Of a stretch of 64,000 bases of DNA, positions 18,873-21,915 are shown one piece after another. Numbering within the stretch: the stretch's first letter is position 1; each line of letters opens with the position of its first letter. This DNA comes from Candidatus Heimdallarchaeota archaeon (GTDB taxonomy: Archaea > Asgardarchaeota > Heimdallarchaeia > Heimdallarchaeales > Heimdallarchaeaceae): contig JAHLWR010000004.1 of the NCBI GenBank assembly GCA_019057815.1, positions 1 to 64,000 of the forward strand, read 5' to 3'. Made by a program: the position numbers and the translations under genes. The notes below the pieces were generated by a model. It saw nothing but the letters and a program-made list of their open reading frames with translations, was not told the origin of the DNA and ran no database searches.

Positions 18873-19139
18873 TTATAGTTCTGTTGTATCATCAGGCCAC
18901 ATTCTTTCTATAACTTCTGTTTCGCATTTCATACAGAGATTCCTTTTCAATATGATTCCATCTTTATCGGTTTCAAAATTCTGAATCAAACCTCGATCAC
19001 ACAGAATATCAGATTTGCATTCAATGCAGTAAAAATACCTGTTTTTGAATTTGGGTGACCACAAATATTTACTACATGAAGCACATTTTTTGCGAAAATC
19101 GCATTTAAGGTGTTGGGCAATAATTGTCATCTTAGTCAT
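18873..19139 (-). CDS. Small Cys-rich zinc-finger protein
   Basis: Three CxxC pairs plus extra Cys/His; overlaps the upstream gene by 8 bp. Confidence 0.65.
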   Translation of the reverse strand: MTKMTIIAQHLKCDFRKKCASCSKYLWSPKFKNRYFYCIECKSDILCDRGLIQNFETDKDGIILKRNLCMKCETEVIERMWPDDTTEL

Positions 19140-19362
19140 CCTCTTCTTTTCTCATAATCCATCTATGATAATCACTTTTCCTTTTTTTATCTTGTCTTTC
19201 TTTCTCAGCATCAGAAAAACCGACTTCTCTGATTAGCTCAGCACGAATATTTCTAGCCATTTTTTCATAATCCCATCTCTTAACAGAAAGACCACAGTCT
19301 AAGCAAACCATAAAGGGAGCTTTATATTTCATTTCCCCACCACATTCAGGGCATCGTGCCAT
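19132..19362 (-). CDS. Small zinc-ribbon protein
   Basis: MARCPECGG...CLDCG; ATG at 19362. Confidence 0.7.
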   Translation of the reverse strand: MARCPECGGEMKYKAPFMVCLDCGLSVKRWDYEKMARNIRAELIREVGFSDAEKERQDKKRKSDYHRWIMRKEEDD

Positions 19363-19599
19363 ACATCTAACCTTCTTATTTGATAACAATAATTTTGTAA
19401 GTTTAAAAAATTACCCTAACAAGCAAAAATTATTTTCATTCACATCTATGAGGTTAAGATATCATCAGTTTTACTCTCATTATTTCTGATGTTTTTTGGG
19501 AAATTAATGATTAAAACTCCAACACAAATTAGTATCAACCCAACAATAAGTGTCCAATCAATTGTTTCTCCTTTTATCAAGAGAAAAGAAAAGATAGTT

Positions 19600-19780
19600 C
19601 CAAAGACAGGAACAAGATTAATGATGAGTTATTGTCTCCTTGTAACATTAGACAAGAGTTAGTTAAGTGTATTTCTTAGAGGTCATTACAATGCTTCGAT
19701 GCTCACTCTGAGTGGATACATCACGTATCCTCCTACCCCGTTCACACTACGTTGAGGTAGTGCTTTCGGATCGCTTTTGA
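19600..19780 (-). ncRNA. Predicted omegaRNA/reRNA of TnpB element 1 (5' boundary approximate)
   Basis: Hairpin GGATAC-GTGAT-GTATCC whose loop can pair with the terminal CATCAT (pseudoknot); predicted guide = flank TAATCTTGTTCCTGTCTTTG. Confidence 0.65.
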
Positions 19781-21042
19781 CTAGAATGTTGTACGCTGCG
19801 TTCACATCAGCGTTGATGAGAAAACCTTGAGCAGATTTGAACAACCCTCGGGTAACTCGTCGTCCAGCATATTTCTGTCTTTCTTGGGGAAATTCATTAT
19901 CCAAAAAACTGCATTTAGAGGTATATTCTTCTGGGATGAGCTCGACTTTTATCCCTTTCTCTGCAGCCTTATACTTCAGCATGTTAATAATACGCATATA
20001 AGGGATAGCAACAAACATCTGGGTGAGTTTTTTCCAGAAATGCACCCCTTGTTTCCATTTCTTGTTATAGCCAATAATTACCTCATGGATGTTTCGTTCC
20101 ACCCACAAATCTACTAGATAACTAGTGAGCTTGTGTATGGCATCCTTAAGTTTCTTTCTCCATTTTTCCCTGAGCTTATAATATGCTGGACCATAATTTA
20201 GTCTATTCTTCACCTTCAGCTGTTTTCTTTGCTGTTGGACATATTGTTCGCGTAATTGTGTTTGTTTCTTCAAATAATATTGTGTAATGGATTTTATTCC
20301 TTTCCCTGCGTCCTTGATAACAATCGGTTGTGAGCCGAGGTTATCCACAAAGGTCACAAGGTTGACCATCCCTAGATCGATCGCTCCTTTCCGTTTTGTT
20401 CGTTTTCTAAGTTTAGGTAAGGTTTTTTGATAGACAATTTCAATAGTATATCCTACTCTTCGTGGTACTATCCTCACTTCTCGCAATTTTGTTAGAGGAG
20501 TTAGTCGTGTTTTGTAATGGAACCCCACTTTTTTGGGAAGGACTAGCCATCCATTGATTATCCTTGCTTGTTGGTTGGTAATAATTGCTACCACCTCCCC
20601 ATCCTTAGCCTTATATCCAGGAGGACGAGGCGTAGCGAAGAACGCTTCAGGATTCGCTCTCCACTCCTTTTTTGCTTGGAAATATCCTTTCCAATTTCTG
20701 CAAAGAAGTTTGAGGGTGTGTTGGGCAGTATGGGCGGGAAGAACCTTGTAACATTCTTCTTGTTTAAGTAACTTATTAAGATCATAGTAGAAGAGAATCT
20801 TACTCTCCTTCTCCAACGATTTTTTTACCAGAAAATTTGCTCGATTGTAGAGATTTTTGACTTGATGACAAAGCTTACTTAACGTTGGAATATAACCTAC
20901 TTCTATGCATTCCACTCTAAGAACTTTTGTCATCCTTAGTTTACCCAGACGTAGATATAAAAACTCTAGTAATATTTGCACCAAAGAGTAGTTTAAGATG
21001 ATTGTTACGTCCCCTTATGTGATAAGGAGACAAATATTATTC
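19621..21042 (-). mobile_element. TnpB-only (IS1341-like, non-autonomous) element 1
   Basis: Removing it restores ATT TTT ATT AAT CTT GTT in the EamA gene; inserted 3' of TTTAT, ends in TCAT; subterminal hairpins/IRs containing TTGTCTCCTT. Confidence 0.92.
19686..20933 (-). CDS. tnpB: TnpB RNA-guided nuclease (rearranged RuvC-II type)
   Basis: KNLYN, IDLG (RuvC-I), IIGYNKKWKQ, EEYTSKCSFLD, GLF, NADVNAAYNI (RuvC-III); ATG at 20933. Confidence 0.93.
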   Translation of the reverse strand: MTKVLRVECIEVGYIPTLSKLCHQVKNLYNRANFLVKKSLEKESKILFYYDLNKLLKQEECYKVLPAHTAQHTLKLLCRNWKGYFQAKKEWRANPEAFFATPRPPGYKAKDGEVVAIITNQQARIINGWLVLPKKVGFHYKTRLTPLTKLREVRIVPRRVGYTIEIVYQKTLPKLRKRTKRKGAIDLGMVNLVTFVDNLGSQPIVIKDAGKGIKSITQYYLKKQTQLREQYVQQQRKQLKVKNRLNYGPAYYKLREKWRKKLKDAIHKLTSYLVDLWVERNIHEVIIGYNKKWKQGVHFWKKLTQMFVAIPYMRIINMLKYKAAEKGIKVELIPEEYTSKCSFLDNEFPQERQKYAGRRVTRGLFKSAQGFLINADVNAAYNILVKSDPKALPQRSVNGVGGYVMYPLRVSIEAL

Positions 21043-21915
21043 ATAAAAATCCTTGTATGAGTTGCACCTATTTTTGAAACTGAGGTGAAGTAAAAGAAAA
21101 AACCTAAAACTGTGGGTAACAAACCTAAAATACAGATTCCAATCCAAAAAAAGGTTTCAATGTTAACCAATGATGACCAATTATTTTCTATAGAAGCTGA
21201 AACACCAAAAAGAATCATGCCTACGAAAGTTGCACAAGCTGTAACTTCAAATGAAGAGACTTTTTTCATTACTGTTTTACCATAAGTTGTATAGAGACTC
21301 CAGAAAACAAATCCGATTAAAACAATAATATTTCCTATGAGATGTTCCTTGTTGTAAACAAAGATCTGTCTTATTCCTACAATAAAGATGACTCCGATAA
21401 AACTTAAAACAAGCCCACTATATTGCATTTCTTACTAAGACGCTCTTTGAGAAAAACAAATGCTATAATTGATATTAGAGCAGGTTGAATTCCAGCGATC
21501 ATAGCTCCTTGAGAAGCAGTAGTGAATTTCATCCCAGTAAGATAAAGCATTCCATAACCAAAGATTCCAATAATACCCAAAATACTAATATCTAGAAGAA
21601 ATCTACGGGTGTATTTTCGATTTTCTTTTTTCATTAAAACTAAAAATATTGGAACAAAAATACAACTAGCTATAAAAAAACGGAAAAATCCTATAGTGAT
21701 TGGAGAAGCTAATTCTACTAAAAGTTTTGAAATAGGCCAGCTTAATCCCCAGAAAGCCATCGCTATTGTTAATAAAATGTAGTATTTTGAATTTTCTAGC
21801 TTCATGGGATTATTCTTCCGTCTATTGTTAGTTGAAATAAGATTATTCAGTTTAAGCAATTTTTCATTATTTAGTTTAAATATCCTTTGCAAAAACTGTT
21901 ATTCAGAAGAATAAA

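What the first reader, a model, noticed from the sequence alone, without database searches (positions are those of the whole stretch)
19621..21047. TnpB element 1: precise junctions, AT at both ends and symmetric terminal inverted repeats
Seen: reading inward from the AT at each junction, the ends are GAATAATATTTGTCTCCTTATCACAT and GATGAGTTATTGTCTCCTTGTAACAT, with TTGTCTCCTT at exactly +10..+19 on both sides. Known: Y1/HUH IS200/IS605 elements lack TIRs and TSDs; serine recombinases cross over at a 2-bp core between symmetric sites; described IS607 cores are typically GG. Inference: mobilised in trans by a serine recombinase or other transposase with an AT core. The Y1 reading (target TTTAT, end TCAT, hairpins) is not excluded.
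Basis: partly seen in the sequence, partly recalled or inferred. Interest (0 to 1): 0.7.

Follow-up and report, generated by a model that had tools for sequence, protein, structure and literature searches.

The report
Transposase-less TnpB transposon, AT-centred inverted ends
This is a 1.4-kb jumping element of a Heimdall-group (Asgard) archaeon that carries only the RNA-guided nuclease TnpB and its guide RNA, has split a transporter gene, and has mirror-image ends around a shared AT that, together with the nuclease's ancestry, point to movement by an IS607-type serine recombinase made elsewhere, which I could not find.

Summary
A sister genome has the same EamA transporter gene uninterrupted, and it joins window 19622 directly to 21045. 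The insert is therefore 1422 bp, with no target duplication and one AT that can be assigned to either junction.

The quoted end sequences are exact. TTGTCTCCTT lies at +10 to +19 on both sides.

Across 85 distinct copies from Heimdall genomes:
- The right end finishes in TCAT in 83.
- In 61 copies an AT lies exactly 9 nt before the first left-end motif.
- The left flank reads NTTAT in 50 of those 61.

Both ends carry two tandem 8-bp TTGTCNNN motifs in inverted orientation, and the two ends co-vary within an element.

Evidence on the mechanism:
- The left end has no hairpin family-wide.
- No Y1 transposase was found in any of the 25 genomes of the genus that holds most copies.
- The TnpB is 37% identical end to end to the TnpB of a Helicobacter IS607-family element, and shows no similarity to the Y1-linked TnpB of the same genome.
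- Every autonomous relative I examined carries a serine TnpA.
- One such relative appears to have AT at both junctions.

No cognate transposase was found beside about 110 copies. This is a new variant of IS607-like elements, and the scan has already noted sister families in this genome.

The parts
19621..19622 (.). AT at the right-end junction. It is the last two bases of the element's TCAT in the IS605 convention, or the crossover dinucleotide in the IS607 reading.
   Evidence: The empty site holds a single AT. RE ends TCAT in 83/85 copies.
19623..19648 (-). Right-end terminal inverted repeat. It has a 9-nt spacer, then two tandem 8-bp motifs (TTGTCTCC TTGTAACA as read inward).
19632..19658 (-). 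Right-end hairpin. The second motif pairs with a third, inverted copy (19650-19658).
   Evidence: Compensatory changes are seen among copies (CTTGTC/GACAAG, CTTGAC/GTCAAG, TTGTG/CACAA). Family mean DNA folding z is -1.6.
19623..19785 (-). Guide-RNA (omega/reRNA) scaffold overlapping the 3' end of tnpB. The guide would be the flank below 19621.
   Evidence: The DNA is invariant across copies whose proteins differ, and three stem pairs have 5-8 double changes each. There is no Rfam match.
19686..20933 (-). tnpB, 415 aa from ATG 20933 (the longest ORF starts at TTG 20984). The RuvC triad is present: D186, E335, D376.
   Evidence: Pfam OrfB_IS605 plus TNB. NCBIfam guided_TnpB at 146 bits. Invariant columns. 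37% identity and E 1e-78 to the TnpB of an H. pylori IS607-family element.
20955..20964 (-). TATA-like box (TTTTTATA) about 25 nt upstream of the tnpB ATG. This is the candidate archaeal promoter.
   Evidence: Conserved block GAGTTTTTATAGG in the left-end alignment of 85 copies. The promoter role is inferred.
21009..21031 (-). Left-end hairpin peculiar to this copy and its 92% relative. It is not a family feature.
   Evidence: DNA MFE is -6.1 kcal/mol with z -3.4 here. The family mean is -1.2 with z +0.15, and only 1% of copies fall below -2.
21017..21042 (-). Left-end terminal inverted repeat. It has a 9-nt spacer, then the motifs TTGTCTCC TTATCACA.
21043..21047 (-). Left-flank target motif TTTAT. 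It is the presumed TnpB TAM, and its last two bases are the left-junction AT.
   Evidence: NTTAT in 50/61 copies, T(-3) in 59/61. It is retained in the empty site.
21045..21892 (-). 5' part of the disrupted EamA transporter gene. Its 3' part lies below 19622.
   Evidence: EamA domains. The sister genome has one intact 315-aa ORF across the site.

Best explanation
The element is a non-autonomous, TnpB-only member of an IS607-like lineage. I infer that it moves as double-stranded DNA through a serine recombinase supplied in trans. The recombinase would bind the two tandem TTGTCNNN motifs that sit 9 nt inside each end. It would then exchange strands at the AT shared by both junctions and the target, giving precise insertion and excision without duplication. 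A circle junction would be a near-palindromic site centred on AT. TnpB with its right-end guide RNA would then cut the emptied TTTAT-plus-flank site and restore the element by homology-directed repair, as shown for other TnpB elements.

Shown here: the exact boundaries, the end architecture, the target motif, the TnpB lineage and the guide-RNA conservation. Inferred: the recombinase type, the circular intermediate and the homing step.

The enzyme was not found. Copies in one genome are at most 95-97% alike, so movement is rare, and many copies may now be stranded.
For: Two clean empty sites each hold one AT and show no duplication.

In 85 distinct copies the RE ends TCAT in 83. AT lies 9 nt before the first LE motif in 61. 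The consensus LE and the reverse-complemented RE agree at 25/30 positions. Within an element the two ends match better than across elements (76.5% against 65.9%; 0 of 2000 permutations reach this).

The LE has no hairpin family-wide.

The TnpB is 37% identical over 405 aa (E 1e-78) to the TnpB next to an annotated IS607-family transposase in H. pylori. Against the Y1-linked TnpB of this genome the E-value is 0.31.

Annotated IS607 transposases sit directly upstream of the best bacterial relatives in Helicobacter, Campylobacter and C. botulinum. None of the 9 regions I examined has an annotated Y1 transposase.

The gut-metagenome relatives L109-L112 have an IS607 TnpA (178 bits). At three separate insertion sites their shared sequence starts with AT and ends with AT.

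PF01797 was found in 0 of 25 genomes of the copy-rich genus.

IS607 ends are known to carry short subterminal repeats, inverted similarity between the ends, and a dinucleotide shared with the target (PMC6188088, PMC4058570).

The right flank is mildly A-rich at +2 and +3.
Against: No serine TnpA lies within 1.5-3.5 kb of any of about 110 copies.

The serine TnpA genes in this genome have unrelated, G-rich ends. The related genomes' IS607 elements also have unrelated ends. The C9/C18 type is confined to this genome within its order.

Several genomes with 10-18 copies show neither IS607 TnpA nor Y1.

TTAT target plus TCAT end is the classic IS605 pattern. A Y1-moved element (ISGst2) uses TTTAT.

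A palindromic AT core gives a serine recombinase no polarity, yet 82% of copies have TTAT on the LE side. That would need selection by TnpB.

One copy (C44) carries a 7-nt flanking repeat that this model does not predict.
Confidence: 0.5

Rival explanations
1. Classic IS200/IS605 (IS1341-type) element moved in trans by a Y1 HUH TnpA. Single-strand cuts fall 3' of the target TTAT and 3' of the element's TCAT. On this reading the AT is just the shared tail of the two tetranucleotides.
For: The flank is NTTAT in 50/61 copies and the RE ends TCAT in 83/85. ISGst2 is TnpB-only, uses TAM TTTAT and is moved in trans by a Y1 TnpA (10.1101/2023.03.14.532601). Sulfolobus solo tnpB elements are also flanked by TTTAT (PMC10640517). 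The RE has a hairpin 13-15 nt from the end. This genome has two Y1 genes.
Against: The LE lacks a hairpin family-wide: mean z +0.15, with 1% of copies below -2. The ends are true inverted repeats with equal 9-nt spacing, unlike the asymmetric IS605 ends. Y1 genes are in 0 of 25 genomes of the copy-rich genus. The resident IS605 copies use TTAC/TCAA and different hairpins. The TnpB has no similarity to the Y1-linked TnpB of this genome, but 37% identity to a TnpB of an IS607-family element. No Y1 lies next to any relative I examined.
Confidence: 0.13
2. A cut-and-paste or otherwise unknown transposase recognises the inverted repeats and duplicates a 2-bp AT target, in the way IS630/Tc1-mariner duplicates TA. 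TnpB would be captured cargo, as in eukaryotic Fanzor elements.
For: AT-[inverted repeat ... inverted repeat]-AT, with one AT in the empty site, is exactly what a 2-bp duplication gives. Fanzor elements derived from IS607 TnpB were captured by TIR transposons (PMC10711439). Protein-less derivatives with the same ends exist at 54, 402 and 414 bp. No cognate IS607 or Y1 enzyme was found.
Against: No IS630-type DDE_3 gene is in this genome. No other gene type was found between such ends in a whole-genome end scan. The target preference is strongly one-sided: TT before AT in 84-97%, against 40-62% A after it. The IS607 lineage of the TnpB makes the serine route more economical.
Confidence: 0.17
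3. The copies are immobile relics. The inverted ends and the AT survive from an ancient burst, and TnpB persists through homing or a host function.
For: The nearest copy in this genome is 85% identical to element 1. The best within-genome identity anywhere is 95-97%. Many genomes lack any candidate transposase.
Against: Insertion polymorphism exists between two genomes of one genus. The ORFs are intact. The ends co-vary between LE and RE, which needs continued selection on both ends. This is a statement about timing, not a rival mechanism.
Confidence: 0.1

Closest known systems
IS607 family (IS607, IS1535, ISC1926, ISCbo10 / C. botulinum IStron, ISXfa1)
   Same: The TnpB is of the same lineage: 37% identity end to end to the TnpB of an H. 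pylori IS607-family element. Both have a right-end guide RNA, no target duplication, one dinucleotide shared by both junctions and the target, and short repeated subterminal motifs with inverted similarity between the ends.
   Different: There is no tnpA in the element or near any of about 110 copies. The shared dinucleotide is AT rather than GG. The ends are clear 25-30-bp inverted repeats with two 8-bp tandem motifs at equal distance, whereas the family is described as lacking terminal inverted repeats. The target motif is TTAT, not TGGG or GGG.
IS1341-type TnpB-only IS200/IS605 elements (for example ISGst2 of Geobacillus stearothermophilus; Sulfolobus solo tnpB)
   Same: They are TnpB-only at about 1.4 kb, with a TTTAT flank as TAM, an element-encoded T(C)AT end, precise insertion and mobilisation in trans.
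   Different: Those have hairpins at both ends on one strand and are moved by a Y1 TnpA. Here the left end has no hairpin, the ends are inverted repeats, and the TnpB is unrelated to the Y1-linked lineage.
Eukaryotic Fanzor elements in TIR transposons
   Same: An IS607-lineage nuclease rides in a transposase-less element bounded by inverted repeats.
   Different: Those show true target duplications and eukaryotic transposase superfamilies. Here no duplication beyond the ambiguous AT is seen, and the host is an archaeon.

Membership tests
IS200/IS605 (Y1) | Autonomous members encode a Y1 HUH TnpA | tested here: not met
   No Y1 was found near any of about 110 copies or 28 metagenome relatives by tblastn, and none is annotated in the 9 plasmid regions. 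PF01797 is in 0/25 genomes of the copy-rich genus.
IS200/IS605 (Y1) | Subterminal imperfect hairpins at both ends on the same strand, and no inverted terminal repeats | tested here: not met
   LE mean folding z is +0.15. The RE has a modest hairpin. The ends are inverted repeats matching at 25/30 positions.
IS200/IS605 (Y1) | Insertion 3' of a 4-5-nt target without duplication, with the right end finishing in a related tetranucleotide | tested here: met
   TTAT flank and TCAT end; two clean empty sites.
IS607 | Serine recombinase TnpA (N-terminal MerR-like HTH plus resolvase catalytic domain) | tested here: not met
   It is absent from the element and from all close copies. It is present directly upstream of TnpB in relatives at 36-37% identity.
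IS607 | The same dinucleotide at both junctions and in the empty target, with no duplication | tested here: met
   AT instead of the described GG. A few copies depart from it.
IS607 | Short repeated subterminal motifs serving as TnpA binding sites | tested here: inconclusive
   Two 8-bp TTGTCNNN motifs lie at +10..+25 on both ends, and they co-vary between the ends. Binding was not tested.
IS607 | TnpB of the IS607-associated lineage | tested here: met
   E 1e-78 to the TnpB of an H. pylori IS607-family element. E 0.31 to the IS605-type TnpB of the same genome.
IS607 | Circular double-strand intermediate | not testable with these tools
   It needs PCR or read data.
TnpB / OMEGA nuclease | RuvC D-E-D triad and a conserved structured RNA at the right end | tested here: met
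   D186, E335 and D376 are invariant. RNA stems show compensatory changes and the DNA is invariant. There is no Rfam family.
IS630 / Tc1-mariner-like | DDE transposase, TIRs and a 2-bp target duplication | tested here: inconclusive
   No PF13358 gene is in the genome. An AT duplication cannot be told from a shared core.

The most novel reading that the evidence does not exclude
These Asgard TnpB-only elements are moved by an enzyme that is neither a Y1 TnpA nor a canonical IS607 TnpA. It could be a host-resident recombinase or an undescribed transposase that reads the tandem TTGTC motifs and acts at AT. That would make them a prokaryotic counterpart of the TIR-bounded Fanzor elements of eukaryotes, in the archaeal lineage closest to eukaryotes.
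Probability: 0.17. Interest if true: 0.85.

Novelty: new variant of a known kind. Interest (0 to 1): 0.55.

Why it matters
If the reading is right, the IS607 way of moving is not tied to a GG core or to ends without inverted repeats. It would also mean that large families of TnpB elements in Heimdall archaea persist without a linked transposase.

This bears on two questions. The first is how IS607-lineage nucleases became cargo of inverted-repeat transposons on the way to eukaryotic Fanzors. The second is how to find transposon boundaries and TAMs of compact nucleases: here the predicted TAM is TTTAT.

It also leaves a concrete open question. Which enzyme moves thousands of such elements? The public protein collection holds 2224 clusters (grouped at 90% identity) with E up to 1e-20.

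Tried and rejected
- **Transposase next to copies.** I searched 30 family loci, 28 metagenome loci and 80 genome loci and found none near close relatives.
- **Resident Y1 elements as helpers.** Their ends are TTAC/TCAA with GC-rich hairpins, and their TnpB is unrelated.
- **Resident IS607 TnpA genes as helpers.** The C9/C18 copies end at contig ends, have G-rich left ends, and are unique to this genome within its order. The C27 copy carries stop codons, and its relatives in the family genomes partner a large, different TnpB with other ends.
- **Thirty best Asgard IS607 TnpA loci.** None has a TnpB detectable with my queries.
- **Whole-genome end scan.** A weight matrix of the ends found only TnpB-sized pairs, three protein-less minis and solo ends. 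No pair enclosed another gene type. The 3.3-kb pair on C31 encloses a host glucanotransferase.
- **IS630-type DDE.** Absent.
- **Rfam and a single-sequence RNA fold.** These gave nothing.
- **PDB sequence search.** Only weak Cas12f matches.
- **Methanohalobium relative (46% identity).** Its ends could not be defined from one copy.
- **Metagenome scan.** I ran it where I had meant the genome scan. Both were used in the end.

Full report
**What is there.** Window 19621-21042 is a 1.4-kb element. Its only gene, on the minus strand, is a TnpB (Pfam OrfB_IS605 and the Cas12f-like TNB domain; NCBIfam guided_TnpB at 146 bits). The likely start is the ATG at 20933, giving 415 aa. The RuvC residues D186, E335 and D376 are invariant in an alignment with relatives down to 31% identity. 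The element sits inside an EamA transporter gene on the same strand. Record titles of close relatives name Candidatus Heimdallarchaeota.

**Boundaries.** In the sister genome G001, contig C102 aligns to window 18900-19622 and 21045-21900 without a gap. The empty site reads ...gattaAT|aaaaatcc..., whereas the window has AT on both sides of the insert. There a single 315-aa EamA ORF spans the site. The insert is 1422 bp with no duplication, and one AT can be assigned to either junction. Read in the sense of tnpB, the element follows TTTAT and ends in ...CTCATCAT. A second own copy (C33:134718-136151) has an equally clean empty site, cgttAT|gaatgg.

**The family.**
- The genome holds about 11 full copies. 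The nearest is 85% identical. One trio is 95-97% alike.
- 25 of the 31 genomes searched in this taxonomic family (this one included) have copies, up to 25 each.
- The public protein collection holds 2224 clusters (grouped at 90% identity) with E up to 1e-20.

I collected 85 distinct copies with both flanks.
- The right end finishes in TCAT in 83.
- In 61 copies an AT lies exactly 9 nt before the first left-end motif. Most of the rest have it at 8, 10 or 11 nt.
- Three listed copies read AC, AA or TT in place of that AT.
- The left flank is NTTAT in 50 of the 61, with T at -3 in 59.
- The right flank is mildly A-rich at +2 (62%, p 1e-7) and +3 (51%).

**End architecture.** Each end has a 9-nt spacer followed by two tandem 8-bp motifs (TTGTCNNN). 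The right end has a third, inverted copy that makes a hairpin. The consensus left end and the reverse-complemented right end agree at 25 of 30 positions. Within an element the motif regions of the two ends are 76.5% identical, against 65.9% between elements, and no permutation in 2000 reached that value. Lineages with GTCAAT or GTGTAA motifs have them at both ends. One reader of double-stranded sequence therefore appears to act on both ends. Relatedness of the copies can inflate the permutation figure, so I treat it as support, not proof.

**Hairpins.** With DNA parameters the first 45 nt of the left end fold no better than shuffles across the family (mean -1.2 kcal/mol, z +0.15, 1% below -2). 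Element 1 and its 92% relative are the exception (-6.1 kcal/mol, z -3.4). The last 45 nt of the right end fold modestly (z -1.6). A Y1 TnpA needs a hairpin at each end.

**Which transposase?**
- No Y1 or serine tnpA lies within 1.5-3.5 kb of any of about 110 copies.
- This genome has two IS605 elements with Y1 TnpA. They use TTAC and TCAA, have GC-rich hairpins, and carry a TnpB with no similarity to ours (E 0.31).
- It also has IS607-type TnpA genes, with other ends.
- PF01797 is absent from all 25 genomes of the copy-rich genus.
- IS607 TnpA is found in 9 of the 23 genomes of that genus sampled.

**Lineage of the nuclease.**
- The TnpB is 37% identical over 405 aa (E 1e-78) to the TnpB that follows an annotated IS607-family transposase on H. 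pylori plasmid pAL226. The match includes the unusual cysteine-poor stretch before RuvC-III.
- Campylobacter coli and C. botulinum BKT015925 (ISCbo10) show the same arrangement.
- Of the nine plasmid regions I examined, three have an IS607 transposase, one has a small site-specific integrase, five are solo, and none has an annotated Y1 transposase.
- Four gut-metagenome contigs carry an IS607 TnpA (178 bits) directly before a 433-aa TnpB 36% identical to ours. At three separate sites the shared sequence starts ATTATAAAAC and ends GATACTAT. An AT at both junctions is therefore the consistent core. This is an inference without an empty site.

**Known biology.** IS607 elements excise as double-strand circles and recombine at a dinucleotide shared with the target. 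They have short subterminal repeats and some inverted similarity between their ends. They are described as GG-cored and without inverted terminal repeats (PMC6188088, PMC4058570, 10.1101/2023.11.20.567912, PMC10711439). On the other side, ISGst2 is TnpB-only, uses TAM TTTAT and is moved by a Y1 TnpA. Sulfolobus solo tnpB elements are also flanked by TTTAT.

**Guide RNA.** The last 160 nt or so are nearly invariant at the DNA level across copies whose proteins differ. They form stems with 5-8 compensatory changes at three pairs. No Rfam family matches.

**Verdict.** The most economical reading is an IS607-like, AT-cored, non-autonomous element. The cognate recombinase is missing, so a Y1 route, an unknown TIR transposase with a 2-bp AT duplication, and present immobility are not excluded.

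One copy (C44) has a 7-nt flanking repeat and a replaced left tip that none of the models explains.

Earlier notes of this scan describe sister families in the same genome with the same unresolved question. I used them as leads only.

Noticed in passing
G000:C44:26306-27740 (outside the window; locus L005): This copy is flanked by a 7-nt direct repeat (ATAAATG in tnpB sense) that occurs once in the empty site of the sister genome. Its left tip reads AAATGG instead of the GATGGG of its 95-97% sisters, as if the tip had been replaced by target sequence.
   Followed up: partly
G000:C1:108067-108120 (locus L243, positions 68-121): A 54-nt micro-element made of two facing ends only, with AT on both sides. 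Protein-less pairs of 414 bp (C16:49044-49457) and 402 bp (C43:36031-36432), and several solo ends, also exist.
   Followed up: partly
G000:C9 3' end and G000:C18 5' end (loci L020, L227): Two copies, 89% identical, of an IS607-family serine TnpA stop exactly at contig ends, so their partner gene is unassembled. One copy has an in-frame stop. This type was found in no other genome of the order searched except one at 49% identity.
   Followed up: partly
window 21015-21892: Upstream of the insertion the EamA gene is also split into two overlapping ORFs (21404-21892 and 21015-21428). The sister genome has one 315-aa ORF, so the interrupted gene seems to be decaying.
   Followed up: partly
proteins P0123, P0153, P0264 (representatives at 38-41% identity): Some mid-distance relatives of this TnpB carry N-terminal extensions of 100-120 aa. 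P0123 has a clear MazE match. P0153 has a below-threshold SAP-like hit and P0264 a below-threshold WLM-like hit. Their sources gave no names.
   Followed up: no
G000:C8:9957-11630 and G000:C4:62376-64030: Two autonomous IS605-type elements (Y1 TnpA of 140 aa plus TnpB of 421-423 aa), with the classic TTAC target, TCAA end and hairpins.
   Followed up: yes
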